Positions 85 to 54,600 of a stretch of 64,000 nucleotides of DNA are shown piece after piece (the first letter of the stretch is position 1; each line of letters opens with the position of its first letter). This stretch comes from Eledone cirrhosa (Eukaryota). The translations under genes and the position numbers were made by a program. Under the pieces are notes generated by a model. The model was not told where the DNA came from, made no database searches, and saw only the letters and a list, made by a program, of their open reading frames with translations. The stretch is taken from contig OZ024747.1 in the NCBI GenBank assembly GCA_964016885.1, positions 11,222,001-11,286,000 on the forward strand, read 5' to 3'.

Positions 85-692
85 ATGGTGGCTGCCAACT
101 CGTTTTCGAGTACGGCCACTACTTTATATCCATGTAGGAGAACCCCTACCGATGCGCTGAACAAGTGTGACTTTTTAGTCCAGCCAGCGACTTGAAAACT
201 CTGGTACAAACACTACACCTGTGACAATTATTGTCAGCTAGTGCTGGGCCCATGGTACCATGTGATGACAAGTGCAGAAAGATCCCCAGATATAAAGCAA
301 TGCCTGTGCCGTGAAGCTTTTATAGTGAGCAAAGCCACTGCACAAAGCCAGCCCCACTCTCTTAACCAAGATGATATTTACCAAAAAGAAGAACAAGTCA
401 ACATCATTGGATACCATCAGGGTTGCAGGTGTTATATCAGAGTTTTCCTTCTCCTAGAATTCTGCCTTGACAAAGGCTAAGGGGTCATCTCTCCCGGTGA
501 TTTTGGATGGCCATTGACTCTTAAGAGCTCCTTTGCCCTTTGACAGGTTTTGTTTTTAGTCCTGCAGGATGTCCAAAGTCACCCTCCTCACCAAGAAACC
601 TTGGTGGGGTTGCCAGTTTAGTCGCCAACGACCCGACCATGAGACAGGTTGTACTGGGATACATGTTACCAGTAGCACCAACTGGTGACCTG
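85..692. mobile_element. Probable retroelement-derived insert within an (ATAC)n microsatellite
   Basis: GC-richer unique block flanked on both sides by ATAC repeats; no convincing ORF. Confidence 0.35.
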
Positions 693-8329: not shown

Positions 8330-9050
8330 GGCAGATGTATGAAAGAGTGAGCTGGGAGTGCATACTGTATGTATGCTTCACCTTCAGCCTGTGTTCATTG
8401 TAAGGTGGATCTTCTGTATTACTGCATAACGCCAGAGATCTCGGTCAAGTGTGATCATTTTTGATAGGTGCAATTGAGCAAGGTCAGCTTTTATCACCTC
8501 ATCCAAGTCTTTCTGGGTCTCCCCCCCCCCCCCCTCCATGGCTTCATATCAACTTTGAGCGCTCTGCACCTTTTTATACAGCTGTCATCTTTCATACACA
8601 CCACATGTCCTTACCAACACAATCTCCTCTCCTGCACACTGCATCTGATCCTCATGAATCATAGTCTGCCTGTCATTTTGAGGGAAAAGCCTTTTGCAGC
8701 AAGCAGTGGTAGTAGCTCCTTGAAGTTCTTCCATCTCATTCTTACTCTGGCTTCTGTACATTCAGAACACCCACCTCTGCTGCTAATTTGGTCACCCAGC
8801 TCTCTAGTGCTTCTATCGAACCTTCCCATAATATGATAGCATTTGTTTCCTGTAGTAATTTGCTGCTAACTCCCCCAATACAATGGCTACATGTAAAACC
8901 TACATTCTGAGCTAAATTTCCCAAGATGCCACTACATCTCTTGTGTATCCATAGTTTGGGATGGAGGGTGGAATTTCTACCTACACCTTTCCTACACACT
9001 GAGCAAGGCCATTTCTCCGAGGGAATCAGTGCTCTGTTTTCCCTATTAAT
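8330..9050 (-). mobile_element. Decayed RTE-like LINE fragment
   Basis: EKWPCSVCRKGVGRNS...WIHKRCSGI Cys-rich insert typical of invertebrate RTE-type ORFs; frameshifted. Confidence 0.65.
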
Positions 9051-9169
9051 GTGACAACATGTATAATCCATGTGTGTAAAATGGACGTTAGATGATGATG
9101 ATGTATGTATCATCATCATCATCATATATATTTATATATATATATATATATATAGAAAGAGAGAGAGAG

Positions 9170-28852: not shown

Positions 28853-28939
28853 CCCTCTTCCTGCTATATCAAGCGTTAACCTAATATATTCCTTCCATAT
28901 ACTGTACCGATTGTGTTGTTATTTCTGTTACCTTTTACA

Positions 28940-30046
28940 TCACGGTTCTAAGACAACATTTCTTACCATATGAGATGTCATCTGGTGTACCACAGGGATC
29001 TATTCTTGGCCCTCTTTTGTTTGTGGCATATATTAATGACATAGATGCCAACTTAAAGAATGCCACAGTACTGAAATATGCAGATGACATCAAGCTGTAC
29101 CTTGAGATAAAAAGGACAGATCCTGAACACTATAGATCTTGCCTGTAATCTAACCTGGACACAATGCAACAATGGATCGCAGACTGGTAACTTAAGCTAG
29201 CTGTGGACAAGTGTACTACCATGCATTTTGGGAGTAAAAATCCAGCGTCCACATACTCCCTCCACAACACTAACATCAAGAAGTCTTCTTGTGAACGTGA
29301 CCTGGGCATTACTGTCAGCAGTGATTTGCGTTGGACGTAGCACGTCTCTAAAATTGTCAAGAAGGCCGAGGATGTCTTAGCATCACTCAGCAAGACCTTT
29401 GTCAGCCACTCTCCAGCTATCTATTTAAAGCTGTATATAGCTATGGTGCGGTCACACTTAGAATTTGTATCACCAGTCTGGAACCCCTATCTTGCTCAGA
29501 ACATTGACCACCTGGAAACTGTTCGGGGACGTGCAACCAAGCGAATACCCTCCATCAGGCATCCACCATACTCTGAACGCCTTGCTTCCTTGGGCATAGA
29601 TACATTGAAGCTCTGACGTCTGGCAACTGACTTGGTAAACACCCACAAAATTATTAACCATCTTGCCAACAACAACCCTGAGTACCTTTTTGATTTCTAT
29701 GTGTCTAACACACGTGGACATGCCCACAAAGTCAGAAAACAGCACAGCTCCCATGACTTTCGGAAACATTTTATCATTCTCAGAGTTGCTGAAGCATGGA
29801 ACAAACTACCTGCATCAGTTGTTAGCTATCAAGACACTGCATCCTTTAAGGCCTCCATGCTTCCTGAGATTCGCCAACACTACACCTAATATTCCCCCTC
29901 TACACACACGCACACATGAATATCATGACTCATACACTATTCACTTCCCTGACATTTGTATATTATTCTATGTACTATACATGCACCTTTGACGAGTTGT
30001 AGTGCACCTGAGCATTGTACACAATAATTTCATTATTATTATTATC
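28940..30046 (+). mobile_element. 5'-truncated, inactivated CR1-clade LINE (RT C-terminal half + 3' UTR + (ATT)n tail)
   Basis: Translates SGVPQGSILGPLLFVAYINDI...YADDIKL...ERDLGITVS...VWNPY...RVAEAWNKLP with several in-frame stops. Confidence 0.92.
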
Positions 30047-38970: not shown

Positions 38971-39419
38971 TGACTAAACCATAAAGATTAATTACTTTTT
39001 AGTGAGATTTACACACACAACACATTTATGTGTTTGTGTGTGTAATAAGATAAACCTATGGCTGTGTAGTTAATGAGTTCACTTCATAACCCTGTAGTTT
39101 TGGATATAGTTCCACTATGAGACGGTTTGGTCAAGTGTCTTTTAATACAAGTTGACCAGTATAATATATACACTGTTGGGTATAGCCTCAGGTTGACCAA
39201 TATAATACACACACTATTGGGTATAGCTTCAAGCTGACCAACCTTTGGGTATCAATCCTTCTGCTCTAGGTATAAATATTTCTCTCTTTTCATTGTTGTC
39301 ACTGGGATGGGAGTAATTGTAGTGGGGTGTTTATGGGGAAATTTCACTGAAATAAAAGGGGTCCCTTGATACTCCTTTAATAAATTAACTTTACTTGATC
39401 AGTAGTTACCCCCACATCT

Positions 39420-39640
39420 TAGTAACACCCTCTATCTGTGATACTACTCCTTACTTAACATTGCTTGACTCCCTTATAGACACAAAACAACATAGTAACT
39501 CCCAAGATCAAAATACTGGCCACATCTTTGATTGTGTTCTGACACGTTCTCAGGACAAGGAGTATGTTTGTGTTACCTGTTCTATGTCTAGTGTAGATGT
39601 TTGGCATATCACTATCCCCTAATATCTCAACATAACTGTG
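39420..39640 (+). mobile_element. Highly decayed L2/CR1-type AP-endonuclease remnant in the presumed 3' UTR (antisense to the gene)
   Basis: LLDSLIDTKQH...GHIFDCVLTR resembles the LINE endonuclease motif L.QHV..PT...GHTLDLVLTR. Confidence 0.45.
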
Positions 39641-39865
39641 CTCCATCCTCACAGACAATCAGCTGCGTGTGAGCCTTGTCACAAATTCAGCTGCTCAAAA
39701 CTCATATTACATAAGCTACTATCAACTATTTCATGACATTGTGTATGTTGGGGTCCCAGACCAGACCAGGGCAGGGCAGGGTAGACTGGAGCATTATGCA
39801 GTTTGAAGAAGCTGTAGGTTACTCTCTACTATTTTGTAGGTTACCTCCATCACAGTTGACTGCAG

Positions 39866-41791
39866 TTACTCAACAACGACACCTGGATCAGTAGCATTGA
39901 CTTTTGGATCAGTAGCATTGAGCTCTGGACCAGTAGCATTGATCTCTGGATCAGTAGCATTGATCTCTGGATCAGTAGCATTGATCTCTGGATCAGTAGC
40001 ATTGATCTCTGGATCAGTAGCATTGATCTCTGGATCAGTAGCATTGACTTCTGGATCAGTAGCATTGATCTCAGGATCAGTAGCATTGGCCTCTGGATCA
40101 GTAGCATTGGCCTCTGGATCAGTAGCATTGACCTCCAGATTAGTTGTGTTGGTGTCTGGATCATTGGTGTCACTTTCTTGATTAATGACGACATTCACCT
40201 CTGAATCAATATTATTGACATCTTTAGGAGTGAGACTTAAATCTTGTTCTGTGACATTCTCACCTGGATCAGGTAAATTCTCACTTGAGTTGATGAGATC
40301 AACAACAGGAAGAGTGACACTGGTCATATTGTCATTAGAACTAGTAACAGTAACATGTGAAGTGGTGATGTTCATACATGGATCAGCATCAGAAACATTT
40401 TGGTTGTTTATTGTGAGACATGGATCAGTAAGATCAGTGAGATGAGGATGAGAGACAGTGATACCTGTGACTGGGACACACAGATGATTGATTGGGAGGT
40501 GAAGGTCATTAATAACTCCCAGATCAGTGACAGTGATACCTGAGGCTTCAGTGATTGGCACATCCAAACTAGATATAACAACACCAACATTACTGACAGC
40601 ACTACCTGAATCAACAACACCTGAACTACCACCTGCACCAACATGGCAGATGTCATCAACCTGGATATCTGAGTTAGAGATAACAACTGGAGTGGAGTCA
40701 GCAGCATCCGCACTCACACTCGACTGAATGACAGTGACAGGAGTGGTAGAAGGTAGATAGCTAGATGGTGTACTCACAGTTACACTCGACTGAGTGGGAG
40801 AAGGGGAAGGATTCCCTTCCAATTGGTCAGAGACAGGGTCAGTATTCTGAGAAGGGCAAGGGGTTAAGGAAGTAGAAAACAAGGGAGGTTGAATTGGGGA
40901 CAGTTTTATACCCAGTACTGACTGGACATTTGGTAAGGAGGGCACAGTCAGAGCATCATTGAGAGCAACGTCAACAGAAACATGTGGCCCACATGTAGTA
41001 CCTGCCCTTGGTAATGATGATGTAATGTTGATGGCATTGACAGAGCCATGTGGCTCACATGTAGCACCTGCACTTGGTAGAGATGACAATGTATTGTTAA
41101 CAGCATCACCAGCAGAGACATGTGGCCCACATGGTGCACCTATCCTTGGTGGTAGTGTGTCAATGACAACATCAACAGGAACATGTGGCGTACATGTGAC
41201 ACTTGTCATTGGTGATAGGAATGGCATATCGTCAGCAGCAGCAGCATCAACAGAAAGATGTGGCCCACATGTGGCATCCGTCATTGGTTGTAGAGATGAC
41301 ACATCATCGACAACAGCAGCAGCATCAACAGAAACATGTGGCTCACATGTGGCATCCGTCATTGGTTGTAGAGATGACACATCATCGACAACAGCAGCAG
41401 CATCAACAGAAACATGTGGCTCACATGTGGCATCCATCATTGGTTGTAGAGATGACACATCATCGACAACAGCAGCAGCATCAACAGAAACATGTGGCTC
41501 ACATGTGGCATCCATCGTTGGTGGTAGAGATGGTTTAAGTTTTGCTAAATGAGCGTCACAGAGTAGCTTTAGTTCGTCCATCTCCAAACAGACAGCAATG
41601 ATCCGCAGTTGATCCAGGATCTGTGGATCAACATCCACAACACCGTTGTATATGTAGTCAGCAAATGCATCCACAGCAGGCTGGCCGACCCCTTTTGGGA
41701 AATTGACCCGCAAGAACTGGCTGGAGGATACATCAGCAGTTGACATGGCTTGCAGTTTAGGGCACATTGCCAACAACACCACCTTGTGAAC
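39866..41791 (-). CDS. Terminal coding exon: rest of BTB (VHKVVLLAMCPKL...FADYIYNG...LEMDELKLLC) plus low-complexity repeat tail
   Basis: Part of 655-aa ORF 39866-41833; tttctccag acceptor; BTB HK.VL and YIY.G motifs. Confidence 0.9.
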   Translation of the reverse strand, partial: VHKVVLLAMCPKLQAMSTADVSSSQFLRVNFPKGVGQPAVDAFADYIYNGVVDVDPQILDQLRIIAVCLEMDELKLLCDAHLAKLKPSLPPTMDATCEPHVSVDAAAVVDDVSSLQPMMDATCEPHVSVDAAAVVDDVSSLQPMTDATCEPHVSVDAAAVVDDVSSLQPMTDATCGPHLSVDAAAADDMPFLSPMTSVTCTPHVPVDVVIDTLPPRIGAPCGPHVSAGDAVNNTLSSLPSAGATCEPHGSVNAINITSSLPRAGTTCGPHVSVDVALNDALTVPSLPNVQSVLGIKLSPIQPPLFSTSLTPCPSQNTDPVSDQLEGNPSPSPTQSSVTVSTPSSYLPSTTPVTVIQSSVSADAADSTPVVISNSDIQVDDICHVGAGGSSGVVDSGSAVSNVGVVISSLDVPITEASGITVTDLGVINDLHLPINHLCVPVTGITVSHPHLTDLTDPCLTINNQNVSDADPCMNITTSHVTVTSSNDNMTSVTLPVVDLINSSENLPDPGENVTEQDLSLTPKDVNNIDSEVNVVINQESDTNDPDTNTTNLEVNATDPEANATDPEANATDPEINATDPEVNATDPEINATDPEINATDPEINATDPEINATDPEINATGPELNATDPKVNATDPGVVVE

Positions 41792-43255
41792 CTGGAGAAA
41801 GATTGACAAACAAATTATAATAAATATATACACTCACACATACACACAGACAATACAGGGGTAGAAAGGACATTTCAGTCTGCCTGGAGATATGACAACC
41901 TCTCTAGTACTGGAGCCCAGGGTCAGAGTTAATGGGGTGTAAAGGGGGCAATTGCCTCAGGCCCCCTGCAGTGGAGGAGCCCCACCAGTGACGGTTGTAG
42001 CAATTTATTTGTACCTTCAGCTGGGCTTCTTAGTTTTAGGAGGGTTAGAGGTTTTGAATTTAATACCTGTATGTATAACTTCTCAATTCCAATTACTTGA
42101 ACCAAGCTAACTTTGATATGTAAAAATGGAGGAAGGGGGATGCTGTGTATTCTAATTTTTTGTGTATGAGGGGTCCCCAAACCTGAAGTGTCCCGTGCCC
42201 CCCTAGGTCTAAATCCAACCCTACTGGTGCCATGATAAAATTCACCCGATACACTCTGTAAAGTAGGAGTGGCGGTGTCATAATAAAATGCATCCAGTAC
42301 ATGCTTGATAATAGCATGGAAAAATGGATGTTAAACAGTGATGATGATGATGAACTGTGGGAGAAGCGATGGTAATGAAAGGGTTAATGACATAGACAGT
42401 GTCTTTCTTTAGAAATATGGTAATGAAAGGGTTAATGACATAGACAGTGTCTTTCTTTAGAAATATGGTAATGAAAGGGTTAATGACATAGACAGTGTCT
42501 TTCTTTAGAAATATGGTAATGAAAGGGTTAATGACACAGACAGTGTCTTTCTTTAGAAATATGGTAATGAAAGGGTTAATGACATAGACAGTGTCTTTCT
42601 TTAGAAATATGGTAATGGAAGGGTTAATGACATAGACAGTGTCTTTCATTAGAAATATGGTAATGAAAGGGTTAATGACACAGACAGTGTCTTTCATTAG
42701 AAATATGGTAATGAAAGGGTTAATGACATAGGTATAGTGTCTTTCATTAGAAATATGGTAATGAAGGAGTTAAGGATGTATAACGCAAACTTACCATTAC
42801 AGTGGCTGTGTCGTTACCAATGCCAGCATCACAAAATTTACCATTTTTCCAAAGCCGCATCAGATTGTGTAGCATGCTTCGCCCATGACTTGCAACAATG
42901 TAAACTTTCTTCAGTCGTTGGGGCTGTTCATCACTCTCAACACTGCAAGGAGTTAATACATCAGTCTTTAATTATATATATATATATGTACATACAAACA
43001 TACATATGTACACACACACACATATACATACATATGTACACACACACATATACATACATATGTACACACACACACATACATACATGGGGGAGTACAGTTT
43101 GGTTTGGCAGGAGTCATGGGTACAGATTGGCGTTTGGTTTAGGGTGTTTGCCGAGGGTTAGTAGACTGATTGGAGCAATGATGGTCTTATCTATGTGTGC
43201 ATCTGCTATTGTGCAACTGCAATTCCGATTATACTCATTATTATTATTTCAACGT

Positions 43256-43288
<33 letters not shown>

Positions 43289-46200
43289 ATTTTATATTTA
43301 TTTTTATATTCACTTATCTCTGTCCATTTTATTTGTTTTGTTTCTCAACTGTAAGAAGTGCTAGATACTTCCCCTAGTCTGTCATGGCTTACTAGCTCTA
43401 TACGGACATTTAAATTGTTATAAACGTTAACCAGGTAATCCACTCATACACCTACACACAGAATTAGTGACCTTCTATGATCTTGATTTATACCTGCATG
43501 TATCCATCCATTAATGAAGAGAAGATCAAAAGAAACCATAATGTTGTTTTGTACATTTCAAGAATATTTTACTAATGTGGTTTCATGTGGTACAGGACAT
43601 TAAGAATTAAACAATATAAGTTCTCAAAAGATAAATAAAAAACATTTATTCAACGCACCTGTGAGGTTCTCCAGACACTTCACTAGAATGGTCTTTTATG
43701 TTGGTTGGACATATCTGGGACGTTTCACACAGTTTCGGAATCTTAGGTATCTTACAAGGCCTCGTTTCTTCAAATGAATCTGAAGACAATGCTATATTTG
43801 GACAAATCTCTACAGCAGGTTGTGAACTTTCCAAAGTTGTTGATTTGTTCTTATCTTTACATTCAATAGTTGACCTTTTCCTATTCCCATCTTCAGAAAT
43901 TACCTTATTTACACCTGTGTTATCCTTTGAAATCAATACCGGACTATGTCTGTCAGTTGCTTCAGACACACCAGATTTATTGTTTGCTGAGCCAAGTGAT
44001 TTCTCGTTGAGGCCAGTCGCTATCTGAAAATAACAACTTCAAAAATAAACTACAAAACTTCAGTTTTAAAACTACCAAATTTCAGTCTTAAAACTACCAA
44101 AATTCAGTTTCAAAACTACCAAACTTCAGTTTCAAAACTACCAAACTTCAGTTTCAAAACTACCAAACTTCAGTTTTAAAACTACCAAACTTCAGTTTCA
44201 AAACTACCAAACTTCAGTTTCAAAACTACAAAACTTCAGTTTTAAAACTACCAAACTCCAGTTTCAAAACTACCAAACTCCAGTTTCAAAACTACCAAAC
44301 TCCAGTTTCAAAACTACCAAACTCCAGTTTCAAAACTACCAAACTCCAGTTTCAAAACTACCAAACTCCAGTTTTAAAACTACCAAACTCCAGTTTCAAA
44401 ACTACCAAACTTCAGTTTCAAAACTACCAAACTTCAGTTTCAAAACTACAAAACTTCAGTTTTAAAACTACCAAACTCCAGTTTCAAAACTACCAAACTC
44501 CAGTTTCAAAACTACCAAACTCCAGTTTCAAAACTACCAAACTCCAGTTTCAAAACTACCAAACTTCAGTTTCAAAACTACCAAACTTCAGTTTCAAAAC
44601 TACCAAACTTCAGTTTTAAAACTACCAAAAGAAGGAGCAGGAGGTAGTCACCTGATCTGTCCAGCTACATTATGTGGTGATGATAGGATGATTGGTATAA
44701 CTGAAATATTCTAACCGAAAGTGAACCTACCAAAGTTTTCAATTTTGGAAGAGAAGAGACTGGTTTTGTTGGGTTCTTCATCTGGTGTTTCTCCCGGCGA
44801 CGTTGGCCACTGGCACTGACTTTCTTCTGGAAATTCAAAACAAATAACAACATATGAATATCTATCAATGTTTTATGGTGATATGCCATAATACAAGAGA
44901 CCTGTCTACTAGTACTAACACTGTGATAGAGATGACACAGGACTGAGCTGACTGGTGATATGTCATAATACAAAAGACCCCAGAAATGACTAAGGACTGA
45001 GCTGACTGGTGATATGTCATAATACAAAAGACCCCAGAAATGACTAAGGACTGAGCTGACTGGTGATATGTCATAAAACAAGAGACCCCAGAAATGACAA
45101 AGGGCCAAGCTGACTGGTGATATGTCATAAAACAAAAGACCTGTCTATCAGTACAAATAATGCAACACTAAAAGTAAACATGATGAGAGAGCAGAGACTA
45201 CAGTGTCTGGCAATCAAACACAAACAATGTAGGGTTTGACAGAACTCTTCAGTCTGGCCAAGCACATAACTACATCTCTAGTTACAGAGTGTACTGAGTG
45301 CATTTATCTTCACACAAGTACTACCACTTTACAGAATGTACTAGGTTCATTTCAAATTAGCACTGGCACTACCACTTTACAGAGTGTACTGAGTGCATGT
45401 TATCCTGATACCAGCAATACAGAGTGTACTGGGTACATTATATCTTAAAAATATAGAAAAAAATATTGCCTTACTTTCATGTGTGGAGGGAAGTCAAAGA
45501 TTGATGGAACAGCCCCATATCTAAGGCGTGTTGTTTGTCCGGTGCGATCAAAACATTCTTCTGAGAAATGTTTGCTACATAGATAGGTCTTATGCTCTGG
45601 CACCCAAATTTTACCATTCACTTGGTACTTCAGAGTAAGTGCCCATTCTTTTCTTCGTTTTAAATCCTTAGGAAAGCTACAAAAAAAAAAAGAGAAATAA
45701 GTGAAAAAGACACCTCACACCTGTTGGTTTAGCTGGCCTCCTACCTGTGTTGTTGTTACACCTCACACCTACGTTGGTTTAGATGGCCTCCTACCTGTGG
45801 TGTTGTTACACCTCACACCTATGTTGGTTTAGCTGGCCTCCTACCTGTGTTGTTGTTACACCTCACACCTACGTTGGTTTAGCTGGCCTCCTACCTGTGT
45901 TGTTGTTACACCTAACACCTGGTTTAGATGGCCTCCTACCTGTGTTGTTGTTACACCTGGTTTAGATGGCCTCCTACCTGTGTTGTTGTTAAACCTCACA
46001 CCTAGTTTAGATGGCCTCCTACCTGTGTTGTTGTTACACCTCACACCTACGTTGGTTTAGCTGGTCTCCTACCTGTGTTGTTGTTACACCTAACACCTGG
46101 TTTAGATGGCCTCCTACCTGTGTTGTTGTTAAACCTCACACCTAGTTTAGATGGCCTCCTACCTGTGGTGTTGTTACACCTCACACCTGGTTTAGATGGC

Positions 46201-48117
46201 CTCCTACCTGTGTTGTTGTTACACCTCACACCTACGTTGGTTTAGCTGGTCTCCTACCTGTGTTGTTGTTACACCTCACACCTCCGTTGGTTTAGCTGGC
46301 TTCCTACCTGTGTTGTTGTTACACCTCACACCTACGTTGGTTTAGCTGGTCTCCTACCTGTGGTGTTGTTACACCTCACACCTACGTTGGTTTAGCTGGC
46401 TTCCTACCTGTGTTGTTGTTACACCTCACACCTCCGTTGGTTTAGCTGGCTTCCTACCTGTGTTGTTGTTACACCTCACACCTACGTTGGTTTAGCTGGT
46501 CTCCTACCTGTGTTGTTGTTACACCTCACACCTACGTTGGTTTAGCTGGCTTCCTACCTGTGTTGTTGTTACACCTCACACCTACGTTGGTTTAGCTGGC
46601 TTCCTACCTGTGTTGTTGTTACACCTCACACCTACGTTGGTTTAGCTGGTCTCCTGCCTGTGTTGTTGTTACACCTCACACCTACGTTGGTTTAGCTGGT
46701 CTCCTACCTGTGTTGTTGTTACACCTCACACCTACGTTGGTTTAGCTGGCTTCCTACCTGTGTTGTTGTTACACCTCACACCTACGTTGGTTTAGCTGGT
46801 CTCCTACCTGTGTTGTTGTTACACCTCACACCTACGTTGGTTTAGCTGGCTTCCTACCTGTGTTGTTGTTACACCTCACACCTATGTTGGTTTAGCTGGT
46901 CTCCTACCTGTGATATTACACCTCACACCTGGTTTAGATGGCCTCCTACCTGTGTTGTTACACCTCACACCTGGTTTAGATGGCCTCCTACCTGTGATAT
47001 TACACCTCACACTTGTTGGTTTAACACTTTTGTTACACACGATATCACGTTGAATCTCCCTGAGAACTATGTTAATATTACATATATCTCTGAAATGCTC
47101 GGCCACTTGCACGTTAATTTCACAAGTGACACAGATGTCCAACACACACACACAAAGTAGGTCTAATCATATTATTATAAAGCGCAAGGGAAATAACTTA
47201 AGGCCTAACAGCATCTTTAACCAATACAATAAATCATTAAATGACAAATATTTCACCAAATACAAAATAAATAACAACTTGAATCTTGTAAACAAAAACT
47301 AATTATTATGAATTTATTTTACTGTTTCATTTATTATAGTGAATAGATTTCCTCTTTTATTGATTCAGTGTGACAGCCCTCCTAGTTGCGCTGGCCCCTC
47401 CCGCACGGCAGAATCCACATCTACCCGGGTTCAGTTTTATTTATTTAGAGCGACTGCCTTCTTAGGTAGCCAAGTACACTCTGTAAAGTGATAGTGTTGG
47501 TGCCACAATAAAATACACCCAGTACACTCTATTTAGTGATAGTGTTGGTTCCCCCCCAAAAAACACCCAGTACACTCTGTTTAGTGATAGTGTTGGTGCC
47601 ACGATATATTACACCCAGTACACTCTGTTTAGTGATAGTGTTGGTGCCACGATATATTACACCCAGTACATTCTGTTTAGTGATAGTGTTGGTGCCACAA
47701 TAAAATACACCCAGTACACTCTGTTTAGTGGTAGTGTTGATGCCGCGATATATTTCACCCAGTACATTCTATAAAGATATAGTGCAAGTGTTTGTGTCAG
47801 AATAAAATACACTCTGGTGAACTCTGTAATGTGGCTGGCGTTAAGAAGGGTTTCCAGCTATCGAAACTATGCCAAAATATTAAACACATGAAGAAGACGT
47901 GGTTACCTAACCAAGTCTTATCTTGAACCATGATAACCCATCCAACCCATGCCAACATGGAGATGTAGACGTATGGTGACGATGATGATGTATGTATGAA
48001 AACAAAAGTCAATATTCTGAAATATAATCAAACTGACCAGTGAAATGTGATGCCTTGCTCTCGTGCCTTTCTATTACTTCGATTAACACATTTATATGCA
48101 GCACAAGATGTTGGCAT
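39866..48117 (-). CDS. THAP zinc finger + BTB/POZ domain protein, ~938 aa; coding exons 48117-48038, 45676-45475, 44826-44731, 44023-43659, 42942-42795, 41791-39866
   Basis: Manual splicing: all introns are GT-AG and phases match (2,0,0,2,0). Total 2817 nt = 938 aa + stop. Both the THAP and the BTB motif are completed only across the predicted junctions. Confidence 0.9.
39881..40132 (-). repeat. Coding 21-bp (7-aa) repeat, 12 x [VAIL]NATDP[EKG] (one unit NATGP)
   Basis: Direct from the translation of ORF 39866-41833. Confidence 0.95.
40960..41521 (-). repeat. Coding 78-bp (26-aa) tandem repeat with degenerate copies; 8 CxPH motifs
   Basis: PMTDATCEPHVSVDAAAVVDDVSSLQ-type unit, 3 near-identical plus 5 diverged units in the ORF translation. 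Confidence 0.9.
41918..42223. mobile_element. hAT-type MITE, same family, opposite orientation, in the last intron
   Basis: TIRs cagggtcagagtta / taaatccaacccta; TSD ctggagcc / ctggtgcc; internal aaaaaattagaatacacagca shared in reverse complement with 10307-10589. Confidence 0.75.
42368..42775. repeat. 48-bp intronic minisatellite
   Basis: atggtaatgaaagggttaatgacatagacagtgtctttc units. Confidence 0.92.
42795..42942 (-). CDS. Coding exon 5: BTB N-terminus ...HGRSMLHNLMRLWKNGKFCDAGIGNDTATVM
   Basis: BTB H...L..L......FCD motif. ccttgcag acceptor, gtaagt donor; joins in frame to VHKVVL. Confidence 0.9.
43659..44023 (-). CDS. Coding exon 4: Ser/Lys/Glu-rich linker
   Basis: ttttcag acceptor; in frame with ORF 43646-43969; donor CACAG|gtgcgt, phase 2. 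Confidence 0.82.
44035..44628. repeat. 22-bp intronic minisatellite (aaaactaccaaacttcagtttc)
   Basis: Direct tandem array. Confidence 0.92.
44731..44826 (-). CDS. Coding exon 3: basic linker KKVSASGQRRREKHQMKNPTKPVSSLPKLKTL (possible NLS)
   Basis: tttccag acceptor, gtaggt donor, 96 nt, phase 0/0; unique sequence between minisatellites. Confidence 0.8.
45475..45676 (-). CDS. Coding exon 2: THAP core FPKDLKRRKEW...[37 protein letters not shown]
   Basis: Conserved THAP residues P, W, CxxHF and the AVP(T/S)IF box. Acceptor is poly-T + gtag; donor gtaagg. Confidence 0.95.
45710..47025. repeat. 50-bp intronic minisatellite (acacctcacacctacgttggtttagctgg...)
   Basis: Direct tandem array. Confidence 0.92.
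48038..48117 (-). CDS. Coding exon 1: N-terminal THAP half, MPTSCAAYKCVNRSNRKAREQGITFH(C)
   Basis: Typical THAP start MPxxCxxxxC...FH. Acceptor ttgttgtag precedes exon start 48151; donor TG|gtcagt. Confidence 0.92.
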
Positions 48118-48599: not shown

Positions 48600-49370
48600 A
48601 CAATCATTTGAGAAACGGAAGTTACATCTTTAAACTTCTCACCAAACCTAAGAATTGTTGGTTAAGAATTAATTCGGAATGAAAGGAAAGAAAGCCACGC
48701 TGCTCCTTTTTCAGGCGGCTACTGTCTTTCCGATTTTACGGAGTAAATCGGCAGTGTGGTGACGAAGGGCACCAGAAGTCTCATCGGAGACAAGTACGAA
48801 AAAGAAGCGGTTGATCAAGCCCCAGTATTTCTTTATCTTCCTCTCCTCTGCATTGCAGGTGGTGGTGCCCGGGTTTGTTGCCGAAACGATAAGGCTGTAG
48901 GCAGAGAACAAGTCACAACACGTCACGTCCCAATTTAGGAACTTACCTCCCCACGAATCAGAAGACGGTTATACCCTTCAAATTAATGTTTTTGTTTATT
49001 TTTACTGTTACGCCAGCCTCGAAGGTGGGTGTAACAATAAAAATGACAAAACCCTCGTTTGCATCACGTCTACCTACAACGAAGGATAATCCATTACATT
49101 TTGTTACCTGTTAAATAGTTATTCTCTATCTAAACATATATTTCTTTAATGTGTTTACTTCTCGTTTGGTAAGTAGATACTATTACATAGATTAAAATAT
49201 ACGTACTTGCTAAGTTATTCTTCCGAATAAAGCAATGTGACAGCAACTTGGTAAACGGGAAGGTTTTTGTCCACAGGTAAACATAAACATATAAAAAAGC
49301 ACGTTGAGAAAATGAGGAAGAAACCGGAAGTAGAAATAATTCTCTCAAGTTGAGAGTTGTCCCCCTTGAT
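48600..49370 (-). promoter_or_regulatory. Probable promoter / 5' UTR exon region of the THAP-BTB gene
   Basis: Locally CpG-rich unique sequence. Consensus donor GAG|GTAAGT on the minus strand at 48947/48946. ETS-type CCGGAAGT at 49324-49331 and CGGAAGT at 48616-48622. Confidence 0.5.
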
Positions 49371-51155: not shown

Positions 51156-51646
51156 GAAAAAATGATCAAGATGAGGCCTCCTGACCTGACAACCTGTCTA
51201 ACACACGCAAGTGACAAAGATAGAAGTTAAGTGATGATGATGGTAATCATCATCATTATCAAACATTATTTAATTTTAGACCTTTTTCTTTAAATTAATA
51301 AATTATTCTGAATTTACATATACAAGATAGCTGAAGAAAAGATAATTAGTAGCACTAACAAGCTGCATTATTGTCTGTAATACATCAGCCATAAATTATA
51401 TTCCCAAACCATACTTCATCCCCCTCAACAAAGCAACAACCCACCGGCTCCAATTACTGGTACGGAAGCAACATCATCAGGCTGCAGCTGTTGTATTACA
51501 TAACTTCTCTGCATGTCTATCTATTTTCATCTTTTTTATGTTCACTTCTTTCATATTATGTCACATCAATTTCTTCATTTACATTTTTATCAGATTTTAC
51601 TTTCACTCCAAACAGAAGCTTTACAGTATTTACTGGGCTACTTTTG

Positions 51647-54600
51647 ACTTTAGTAAACAGTCTACCCCAGTATCTATAGTCTTTAGTAAACAGTCTACCC
51701 CAGTATCTATAGTCTTTAGTAAACAGTCTACCCCAGTATCTATAGTCTTTAGTAAACAGTCTACCCCAGTATCTATAGTCTTTAGTAAACAGTCTACCCC
51801 AGTCTCTATAGTCTTTAGTAAACAGTCTACCCCAGTATCTATAGTCTTTAGTAAACAGTCTACCCCAGTATCTATAGCCTTTAGTAAACAGTCTACCCCA
51901 GTATCTATAGCCTTTAGTAAACAGTCTACCCCAGTATCTATAGTCTTTAGTAAACAGTCTACCCCAGTATCTATAGCCTTTAGTAAACAGTCTACCCCAG
52001 TATCTATAGCCTTTAGTAAACAGTCTACCCCAGTATCTATAGCCTTTAGTAAACAGTCTACCCCAGTATCTATAGCCTTTAGTAAACAGTCTACCCCAGT
52101 ATCTATAGCCTTTAGTAAACAGTCTACCCCAGTATCTATAGTCTTTAGTAAACAGTCTACCCCAGTATCTATAGTCTTTAGTAAACAGTCTACCCCAGTA
52201 TCTATAGCCTTTAGTAAACAGTCTACCCCAGTATCTATAGCCTTTAGTAAACAGTCTACCCCAGTATCTATAGCCTTTAGTAAACAGTCTACCCCAGTAT
52301 CTATAGTCTTTAGTAAACAGTCTACCCCAGTATCTATAGTCTTTAGTAAACAGTCTACCCCAGTATCTATAGCCTTTAGTAAACAGTCTACCCCAGTATC
52401 TATAGCCTTTAGTAAACAGTCTACCCCAGTATCTATAGCCTTTAGTAAACAGTCTACCCCAGTATCTATAGCCTTTAGTAAACAGTCTACCCCAGTATCT
52501 ATAGCCTTTAGTAAACAGTCTACCCCAGTATCTATAGTCTTTAGTAAACAGTCTACCCCAGTATCTATAGTCTTTAGTAAACAGTCTACCCCAATATCTA
52601 TAGTCTTTAGTAAACAGTCTACCCCAGTATCTATAGCCTTTAGTAAACAGTCTACCCCAGTATCTATAGTCTTTAGTAAACAGTCTACCCCAGTATCTAT
52701 AGTCTTTAGTAAACAGTCTACCCCAGTATCTATAGTCTTTAGTAAACAGTCTACCCCAGTATCTATAGTCTTTAGTAAACAGTCTACCCCAGTATCTATA
52801 GTCTTTAGTAAACAGTCTACCCCAGTATCTATAGTCTTTAGTAAACAGTCTACCCCAGTATCTATAGTCTTTAGTAAACAGTCTACCCCAGTATCTATAG
52901 TCTTTAGTAAACAGTCTACCCCAGTATCTATAGTCTTTAGTAAACAGTCTACCCCAATATCTATAGTCTTTAGTAAACAGTCTACCCCAGTATCTATAGC
53001 CTTTAGTAAACAGTCTACCCCAGTATCTATAGCCTTTAGTAAACAGTCTACCCCAGTATCTATAGCCTTTAGTAAACAGTCTACCCCAGTATCTATAGCC
53101 TTTAGTAAACAGTCTACCCCAGTATCTATAGCCTTTAGTAAACAGTCTACCCCAGTATCTATAGTCTTTAGTAAACAGTCTATCCCAGTATCTATAGCCT
53201 TTAGTAAACAGTCTACCCCAGTATCTATAGCCTTTAGTAAACAGTCTACCCCAGTATCTATAGTCTTTAGTAAACAGTCTACCCCAGTATCTATAGTCTT
53301 TAGTAAACAGTCTACCCCAGTATCTATAGTCTTTAGTAAACAGTCTACCCCAGTATCTATAGTCTTTAGTAAACAGTCTACCCCAGTATCTATAGTCTTT
53401 AGTAAACAGTCTACCCCAGTATCTATAGCCTTTAGTAAACAGTCTACCCCAGTATCTATAGCCTTTAGTAAACAGTCTACCCCAGTATCTATAGCCTTTA
53501 GTAAACAGTCTACCCCAGTATCTATAGCCTTTAGTAAACAGTCTACCCCAGTATCTATAGTCTTTAGTAAACAGTCTACCCCAATATCTATAGTCTTTAG
53601 TAAACAGTCTACCCCAGTATCTATAGCCTTTAGTAAACAGTCTACCCCAATATCTATAGCCTTTAGTAAACAGTCTACCCCAGTATCTATAGTCTTTAGT
53701 AAACAGTCTACCCCAGTATCTATAGTCTTTAGTAAACAGTCTACCCCAGTATCTATAGCCTTTAGTAAACAGTCTACTCCAGTATCTATAGTCTTTAGTA
53801 AACAGTCTACCCCAATATCTATAGTCTTTAGTAAACAGTCTACCCCAGTATCTATAGTCTTTAGTAAACAGTCTACCCCAGTATCTATAGCCTTTAGTAA
53901 ACAGTCTACCCCAATATCTATAGCCTTTAGTAAACAGTCTACCCCAGTATCTATAGTCTTTAGTAAACAGTCTACCCCAGTATCTATAGTCTTTAGTAAA
54001 CAGTCTACCCCAGTATCTAGTCTTTAGTAAACAGTCTACCCCAGTATCTATAGTCTTTAGTAAACAGTCTACCCCAGTATCTATAGTCTTTAGTAAACAG
54101 TCTACCCCAGTATCTAGTCTTTAGTAAACAGTCTACCCCAGTCTCTATAGTCTTTAGTAAACAGTCTACCCCAGTATCTATAGCCTTTAGTAAACAGTCT
54201 ACCCCAATATCTATAGTCTTTAGTAAACAGTCTACCCCAGTATCTATAGTCTTTAGTAAACAGTCTACCCCAGTATCTATAGTCTTTAGTAAACAGTCTA
54301 CCCCAGTATCTATAGTCTTTAGTAAACAGTCTACCCCAGTATCTATAGCCTTTAGTAAACAGTCTACCCCAGTATCTATAGCCTTTAGTAAACAGTCTAC
54401 CCCAGTATCTATAGCCTTTAGTAAACAGTCTACCCCAGTATCTATAGTCTTTAGTAAACAGTCTACCCCAGTATCTATAGTCTTTAGTAAACAGTCTACC
54501 CCAGTATCTATAGTCTTTAGTAAACAGTTTACCCCAGTATCTATAGCCTTTAGTAAACAGTCTACCCCAGTATCTATAGTCTTTAGTAAACAGTCTACCC

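What the first reader, a model, noticed from the sequence alone, without database searches (positions are those of the whole stretch)
39866..48117. THAP-BTB fusion protein with no C2H2 fingers, invisible in the ORF track
Seen: six phase-compatible exons join a complete C2CH THAP domain to a BTB/POZ domain and a ~550-aa acidic Ser/Thr/Pro/Val tail. Established: THAP is a P-element-transposase-related DNA-binding domain, normally N-terminal and often followed by a coiled coil. BTB is normally N-terminal to C2H2 or Kelch modules and mediates oligomerisation, corepressor or Cullin-3 binding. Inference: this is an uncommon architecture in which BTB supplies dimerisation for a THAP DNA-binder, possibly a lineage-specific transcription factor made by exon shuffling.
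Basis: partly seen in the sequence, partly recalled or inferred. Interest (0 to 1): 0.8.

Follow-up and report, generated by a model that had tools for sequence, protein, structure and literature searches.

The report
Octopus THAP-BTB factor, swappable-domain family
This is a real, conserved octopus gene joining a THAP zinc-finger domain to a BTB domain, likely a dimeric transcription factor; the pairing is already catalogued, but it belongs to a cephalopod family in which one sister gene carries dozens of different predicted DNA-binding first exons upstream of a single shared BTB part.

Summary
The six-exon model holds: all introns are GT-AG and the protein is 938 aa with no internal stop. 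It has an intact THAP2-like domain, a BTB domain, an acidic tail and no C2H2 fingers. Orthologues with the same layout exist in three Octopus species and Argonauta. A 2023 paper already lists the O. bimaculoides orthologue as 'THAP BTB', so the architecture is not new; I found no test of its function. It lacks the coiled coil and HCF-1 motif of its nearest THAP relatives, so BTB likely supplies dimerisation (inferred; no model obtained). The more surprising result is the family. This BTB follows many transposon-type DNA-binding domains (THAP, CENP-B, psq, FLYWCH, DUF3504, Brinker). One paralogue, LOC106877732, has RefSeq isoforms numbered to X36 that share one BTB part but differ in first exon. 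In this genome, 22 such exons lie on one strand upstream of the shared BTB exons, and 7 more lie on an unplaced contig. Four THAP half-exons would take their last zinc ligand from a shared exon. This resembles Drosophila mod(mdg4)/lola turned back to front; my paper searches found no description of it. The window gene is a fixed, single-domain member.

The parts
49207..49321 (-). Likely non-coding first exon (donor GTACGT after 49207; start approximate), just below a CCGGAAGT ETS-type motif at 49324-49331
   Evidence: Inferred. By eye it resembles the 5' end of the O. bimaculoides cDNA in the paper's supplement; the length of RNA-like contig 31 of run X4 leaves 105-115 nt for it
48038..48117 (-). 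Coding exon 1: ATG and THAP residues 1-27 (C5, C10); phase-2 donor. The exon extends 24 or 34 nt upstream to an AG acceptor
45475..45676 (-). Coding exon 2: THAP residues 27-94 (P29, W38, C60, H63, F64, AVPSIF)
   Evidence: Pfam THAP E 6e-11; 93% identical to the O. vulgaris orthologue
44731..44826 (-). Coding exon 3: basic stretch, residues 95-126 (candidate nuclear localisation signal, inferred)
   Evidence: 23 of 32 identical to the Octopus orthologue
43659..44023 (-). Coding exon 4: linker, residues 127-248; no coiled coil, no HCF-1 motif
   Evidence: 50 of 118 aligned residues identical to the orthologue; matching exon ends in another record, P0056
42795..42942 (-). Coding exon 5: N-terminal extension and start of the BTB domain, residues 248-297
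   Evidence: family profile E 4e-17; RNA-like contig leaves the genome at this acceptor
41543..41791 (-). Exon 6, first part: rest of the BTB domain, residues 298-380
   Evidence: Pfam BTB; whole BTB 98 of 124 identical to the Octopus orthologue
39866..41542 (-). Exon 6, acidic low-complexity tail (residues 381-938) and stop codon
   Evidence: colinear with orthologue tails to the last residues
41170..41532 (-). In-frame 78-bp (26-aa) repeat, 4.7 copies, single copy in the Octopus orthologue
   Evidence: a contig of run X4 skips 156 nt here
40466..40543 (-). Tail motif (residues 714-739) conserved in window, Octopus and Argonauta; candidate cofactor-binding site (inferred)
   Evidence: alignment
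39883..40163 (-). In-frame 21-bp (7-aa) repeat, 13.4 copies, at the C-terminus

Best explanation
The window holds a conserved octopod gene for a THAP2-like zinc-finger domain followed by a BTB domain and an acidic tail, which likely works as a sequence-specific transcription or chromatin factor that dimerises through BTB in place of the coiled coil it lacks. Shown: the open spliced model, the domains, orthologues, absence of coiled coil, HCF-1 motif, BACK domain and C2H2 fingers, and membership in a coleoid family that places one BTB module behind many transposon-type DNA-binding domains. Inferred: zinc and DNA binding (all signature residues intact); BTB homodimers that would present two THAP domains to paired sites; cofactor recruitment through the acidic tail and its conserved motif; possible mixed dimers with paralogues. 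Inferred origin: a copy of the family's two BTB exons came to lie behind a THAP2/6-type gene and replaced its coiled-coil exon. It is a fixed single-domain member, unlike the paralogous locus that swaps first exons.
For: Gene model. Orthologues with THAP+BTB in O. vulgaris, O. sinensis, O. bimaculoides and Argonauta hians; both O. sinensis isoforms join linker to BTB. Conservation peaks on the domains: THAP 86/94, BTB 98/124, linker exon 50/118. Best solved relative human THAP2, E 1e-19, ahead of THAP1, 8e-10. 5 of 5 stand-alone THAP relatives carry a [DE]HxY motif and a coiled-coil-like stretch (crude score 0.78-1.02); window, Octopus and Argonauta linkers score 0.47-0.53 and carry no motif. 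BTB match to PATZ1 starts at residue 253, covering the N-terminal extension; no BACK in Pfam. 0 of 25 BTB-bearing representatives have a C2H2 motif. Same BTB intron (M|VHK) in the paralogues on C4, C21, C23, C10 and C11. No other DNA-binding exon in the window or 100 kb upstream. RNA-like run X4 leaves the genome at the acceptors of exons 5 and 6, while contigs of three DNA-like runs cross the exon-6 acceptor.
Against: The exon 4-5 junction was not read directly: the letters of contig 31 beyond 42945 were not shown, X4 is unlabelled and is one run, and X1-X3 have no cover at that acceptor to compare. I did not see the RNA support behind the RefSeq models. The best single PDB match of the BTB is a Kelch-family protein, IVNS1ABP. 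The coiled-coil score is a crude script. The THAP group holding the window has open support (89/97) and also holds a P-element transposase, P0097, so a transposon donor is not excluded. The BTB tree does not resolve the window gene's sister.
Confidence: 0.72

Rival explanations
1. The protein is a chromatin-targeted Cullin-3 ubiquitin-ligase adaptor: THAP places it on DNA and BTB recruits Cullin-3.
For: The closest solved BTB by sequence is IVNS1ABP, with KLHL3 and KLHL26 also hit; SPOP appears for the paralogue.
Against: No BACK domain in Pfam; the sequence turns low-complexity straight after the BTB. PMC11426971 (section read) names the 3-box/BACK extension as the Cullin-3-interacting part that separates KLHL-type from ZBTB-type domains.
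Confidence: 0.1
2. The protein is an architectural or insulator-type factor rather than a classical activator or repressor, bridging distant sites through BTB contacts with paralogues, as Mod(mdg4) does in flies.
For: The family uses FLYWCH and psq domains with BTB, as fly TTK-group proteins do, and has multi-isoform loci. The main locus's BTB exon is identical over 84 residues in this genome, O. bimaculoides and Argonauta.
Against: No FxLRWN motif; PMC11426971 found TTK-type BTBs only in arthropods. No binding or localisation data. Not exclusive of the best explanation.
Confidence: 0.13
3. THAP and BTB parts are two adjacent genes fused by gene predictors.
For: The junction was not read directly; exon 4's frame reaches a stop 4 codons past the donor.
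Against: Exon 5 has an acceptor in matching phase; fused models in four species; contig 31 (1012 nt) has the length expected for exons 5 back to the first exon; decapodiform contigs of 2.4-2.8 kb encode whole THAP+BTB proteins of the family.
Confidence: 0.04
4. It is a remnant or cargo of a 'BTB/POZ transposon', the reading given in PMC10027918.
For: The paper says so; the N-terminal domains of the family are of transposase types.
Against: No transposase domain in the orthologue; multi-exon single-copy gene (one self hit) conserved on both domains; 13 of the paper's 17 Octopus THAP-BTB rows are products of one host locus.
Confidence: 0.01

Closest known systems
Octopus LOC106875079 / LOC115219085 (XP_014778534, XP_029645011/2), listed as 'THAP BTB' in PMC10027918
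   Same: Orthologue: same domains, order, ends; THAP 90-91% and BTB 79% identical.
   Different: The window copy has two in-frame repeat expansions in the tail (938 against 748-761 aa).
Human THAP2 / fish THAP2- and THAP6-like proteins
   Same: Closest THAP domains, about 50-56% identical; N-terminal C2CH domain with all signature residues.
   Different: The five relatives tested have an HCF-1 motif and a coiled coil and are about 200-220 aa; this protein has neither and has BTB plus a long acidic tail.
Drosophila mod(mdg4) and lola
   Same: One shared BTB with many alternative DNA-binding domains, at least 30 and 20 isoforms (PMC11426971); applies to the paralogous locus, not the window gene.
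   Different: Order reversed (variable part first); at least seven domain types against mainly FLYWCH or C2H2; not TTK-type; all octopus exons found lie on one strand, so cis-splicing from alternative promoters would suffice, whereas the fly loci use trans-splicing.
ZBTB / POK factors (PATZ1, BCL6, ZBTB18)
   Same: BTB with N-terminal extension and no BACK, paired with a DNA-binding domain.
   Different: BTB is internal and follows the DNA-binding domain; no C2H2 array.
Vertebrate KCTD1 isoform b
   Same: A transposon-derived domain (DUF3504) captured upstream of a BTB gene as a new transcript variant (PMC3212892).
   Different: One captured domain; the octopus family has many, and the window gene's domain is THAP.
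Clustered protocadherins and UGT1 (recalled, not from a call)
   Same: Array of variable first exons spliced to shared constant exons; applies to the paralogous locus.
   Different: Here the variable exons encode unrelated DNA-binding folds and enter at several shared exons.

Membership tests
THAP proteins | N-terminal C2CH signature | tested here: met
   C5, C10, C60, H63; definition from PMC3479173
THAP proteins | Invariant P, W, F, P and AVPTIF box | tested here: met
   P29, W38, F64, P84, AVPSIF
THAP proteins | Coiled coil and HCF-1-binding motif (common, not universal: bioRxiv 10.1101/813352) | tested here: not met
   No [DE]HxY; crude score 0.48 against 0.78-1.02 in 5 of 5 controls
THAP proteins | [quoted passage not shown] | not testable with these tools
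   Needs assay
P-element transposase / THAP9 | Transposase catalytic region after THAP | tested here: not met
   Only THAP and BTB in Pfam
ZBTB / POK | BTB with N-terminal dimerisation extension | tested here: inconclusive
   Sequence match to PATZ1 spans it; no structure model was obtained
ZBTB / POK | N-terminal BTB followed by C2H2 fingers | tested here: not met
   BTB at residues about 261-380, no C2H2
KLHL / BTB-BACK Cullin-3 adaptors | 3-box/BACK and substrate domain after BTB | tested here: not met
   None in Pfam
TTK-group BTB (mod(mdg4), lola) | FxLRWN motif | tested here: not met
   0 of 7 family proteins
mod(mdg4)/lola-type variable-exon locus | Many alternative DNA-binding exons sharing one BTB, at the window gene | tested here: not met
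   Only its own THAP exons in the window plus 100 kb upstream
mod(mdg4)/lola-type variable-exon locus | Many alternative DNA-binding exons sharing one BTB, at the paralogue on C4 | tested here: met
   22 + 7 exon hits; 19 of 21 isoform first parts found with a GT at the predicted end
mod(mdg4)/lola-type variable-exon locus | Trans-splicing | not testable with these tools
   All exons on C4 are on one strand upstream of the shared exons; C581 is unplaced
Coleoid DNA-binding-domain-first BTB family | Family BTB with the M|VHK intron, preceded by a transposon-type DNA-binding domain | tested here: met

The most novel reading that the evidence does not exclude
Coleoid cephalopods evolved, independently of flies, a combinatorial transcription-factor system: loci that capture transposon DNA-binding domains as alternative first exons (about 29 at one locus in this genome, at least seven domain types, some THAP fingers completed only by splicing) onto one near-invariant BTB part, plus fixed members such as the window gene. 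Mixed BTB dimers would pair any two specificities, with promoter choice setting a cell's repertoire, like a protocadherin cluster for DNA recognition. The exon array is well supported here; mixed dimers and cell-specific choice are untested.
Probability: 0.45. Interest if true: 0.88.

Novelty: new variant of a known kind. Interest (0 to 1): 0.6.

Why it matters
The window gene alone is a catalogued but apparently unstudied octopod factor (interest about 0.35). Its family context matters more. First, 13 of 17 published Octopus THAP-BTB entries come from one locus, which changes counts of independent domestication. Second, a shared BTB acceptor that collects transposon DNA-binding exons offers a dated series of capture events across Octopus, Argonauta and cuttlefish. 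Third, a back-to-front mod(mdg4)/lola in cephalopods would be a clear case of convergence and a testable source of regulatory diversity, readable in existing long-read and single-cell data by first-exon usage.

Tried and rejected
No RNA-labelled run was listed for the stretch; not evidence either way. ESM Atlas: no usable hit for residues 1-390; generic BTB clusters for 255-390. A profile of A2 found only IVNS1ABP in PDB. Earlier scan notes: nothing. Downstream C2H2 exons: rejected (orthologues end at the same place). Origin of the window THAP from an exon of the C4/C581 array: not favoured by the tree, support open; note one array THAP on C581 has the same intron site, so the intron does not discriminate. 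ETS motifs upstream of array exons: 3 of 18 had any, uninformative; CpG counts were above the background median of 9 in 17 of 18, weak. Two of 21 isoform first parts (P0009, P0015) were not found in the stretches held. One search used a wrong exon-6 start (41790), corrected. THAP+BTB outside cephalopods is not excluded: only the best 150 of 2259 representatives were listed and I could look up names for 9 BTB-bearing ones (7 coleoid, 2 unnamed).
Full report
Observation. The six minus-strand exons join through GT-AG introns in phases 2,0,0,2,0 into a 938-aa protein with no internal stop. Pfam finds THAP on exon 2 (E 6e-11) and BTB on exon 6 (E 8e-5). The zinc ligands, the four invariant residues and an AVPSIF box are present (definition from PMC3479173, passages). 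Residues 381-938 hold 79 acidic and 7 basic residues. There is no C2H2 motif in the protein or near the gene. Exon 6 does lie in a 655-aa open frame, so only the THAP part is hidden from an ORF track.

One gene. Orthologues with THAP and BTB on one chain are annotated in Octopus vulgaris, O. sinensis, O. bimaculoides and Argonauta hians. Identity to O. vulgaris is 86/94 in THAP, 98/124 in BTB, 50/118 in the linker exon and 171/320 aligned tail residues. Four unlabelled runs hold the stretch. On 39300-42980, contigs of X1-X3 cross the exon-6 acceptor into the intron; the contig of X4 stops at 41792 with 15 letters left, and a 1012-nt X4 contig leaves the genome at the exon-5 acceptor. Its remaining length fits exons 4 to 1 plus 105-115 nt of a non-coding first exon ending at 49207, which by eye resembles the orthologue's cDNA start. 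This is consistent with splicing but is one unlabelled run, the junction letters were not shown, and X1-X3 have no cover at the exon-5 acceptor.

Already in print. Mukherjee and Moroz 2023 (PMC10027918; abstract, the domain-analysis section, passages and all 30 BTB places of supplement Table1 seen; preprint passages) say Octopus THAP and CENPB factors mostly go with BTB/POZ, call BTB a transposon component, and list XP_014778534 as 'THAP BTB'. I saw no functional work on it.

How it likely works. The THAP domain is closest to human THAP2 among solved structures (E 1e-19) and to fish THAP2/6-like proteins. Five of five such relatives have an HCF-1 motif and a coiled-coil-like stretch; the window, Octopus and Argonauta proteins have neither (the role of these elements from bioRxiv 10.1101/813352, passages). 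The BTB match to PATZ1 covers the N-terminal extension and no BACK follows, the pattern PMC11426971 (passages and one section) gives for transcription-factor BTBs; the single best PDB match is however a Kelch protein. I infer a BTB dimer carrying two THAP domains, with the acidic tail and its conserved motif at 714-739 recruiting cofactors. No structure model was obtained.

The family. The BTB exon has 19 matches in this genome, self included. Among 143 newly listed representatives, 25 carry this BTB; none has a C2H2 motif, and the N-termini carry THAP, CENP-B, FLYWCH, DUF3504, STPR, CG-1, FAR1/ZSWIM-like or Brinker-like domains. Named members are Octopus, Argonauta or Sepia (15 of 16 hits; 7 of 9 looked up, the rest unnamed). 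The intron inside the BTB is at the same codon in the paralogues examined. One paralogue on C23 is THAP, three C2H2 fingers, then BTB.

The swapping locus. O. bimaculoides LOC106877732 has RefSeq isoforms numbered to X36. The 24 I held share an identical C-terminal 534 aa or more and have 23 different starts, with THAP, CENP-B, psq, FLYWCH, DUF3504, Brinker or other HTH domains (29 proteins scanned). In this genome 22 domain hits (11 THAP, 4 CENP-B, 3 DUF3504, 3 psq, 1 C2H2-like) lie on the plus strand of C4 at 234,567,943-234,779,578, upstream of the shared BTB exons; 7 more lie on unplaced contig C581. Of 21 isoform first parts searched, 19 were found at 74-100% identity, and all 19 have a GT at the predicted end. 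Four THAP exons end at AAG|GT after the third cysteine, and a shared exon at 234,758,190 starts with the histidine, so splicing would complete the finger. A second locus, LOC106879774, has isoforms to X7 and 5 such exons on C11. In a cluster with Sepia proteins, a THAP-first and a FLYWCH-first protein from short contigs share 698 identical C-terminal residues. Thirteen of the paper's 17 Octopus THAP-sheet rows with BTB come from the first locus (12 show the shared part, one is a merged model), and its main text never uses 'isoform'.

Place of the window gene. No other such exon lies in the window or 100 kb upstream. Its THAP groups with stand-alone THAP2/6-like domains, the C23 paralogue and one P-element transposase rather than with the array's THAPs, with open support 89/97 (36 rows; most C581 exons were represented only by orthologues). 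The BTB tree leaves its sister unresolved (40 rows). The simplest reading is a copy of the BTB exons placed behind a THAP2/6-type gene.

Comparison and novelty. It works like a THAP factor with a ZBTB-type dimer domain; it is a THAP protein, not a ZBTB, KLHL or TTK protein. The swapping locus resembles mod(mdg4) and lola (PMC11426971) reversed, KCTD1b (PMC3212892, passages) multiplied, and protocadherin clusters (recalled). Searches found no description of the array; I saw most hits only as listings, the library lacks most subscription papers, and the isoforms have long been in RefSeq. PMC12111275 (passages) treats oyster THAP and BTB as separate families. Verdict: real gene, known architecture, new variant in its family context; interest 0.6.

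Noticed in passing
G000:C4:234,567,943-234,784,808 (+) and G000:C581:27,423-65,753 (+): Array of 22 + 7 DNA-binding-domain first exons upstream of shared BTB exons; orthologue of LOC106877732. C581 probably belongs in the C4 locus.
   Followed up: yes
G000:C4:234,729,719-234,745,469 and 234,758,190: Four THAP half-exons lack the final His ligand; a shared exon starting HFVGG would supply it.
   Followed up: partly
G000:C11:580,453-761,085 (+): Second variable-first-exon BTB locus (3 FLYWCH, 2 DUF3504), orthologue of LOC106879774.
   Followed up: partly
G000:C4:285.94-286.09 Mb, 297.95-298.33 Mb, 312.38 Mb; C21:7.74-7.76 Mb; C23:6.42-6.43 Mb; C10:2.71 Mb: Further family members with Brinker, FLYWCH, CENP-B, STPR, DUF3504 or THAP+C2H2 before the BTB.
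   Followed up: partly
G000:C4:234,796,653-234,796,868: An extra copy of the first BTB exon just downstream of the main locus, with no second BTB exon found beside it.
   Followed up: no
window 39883-40163 and 41170-41532: In-frame tail repeats in the window; Argonauta has different in-frame repeats in the same tail. Run X4 skips two 78-bp units (allele or assembly collapse).
   Followed up: partly
window 41792/42812, run X4: A spliced contig matching the C21 paralogue's BTB junction, a sign that X4 is RNA and that this paralogue is spliced at the same site.
   Followed up: partly
window 51346-54120: 800-890-aa open frames that are only a 30-bp tandem repeat.
   Followed up: no
window 196-280, 8745-9131, 28885-29886: Fragments that look like LINE reverse-transcriptase remnants (recalled resemblance); no other protein gene seen in the window.
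   Followed up: no
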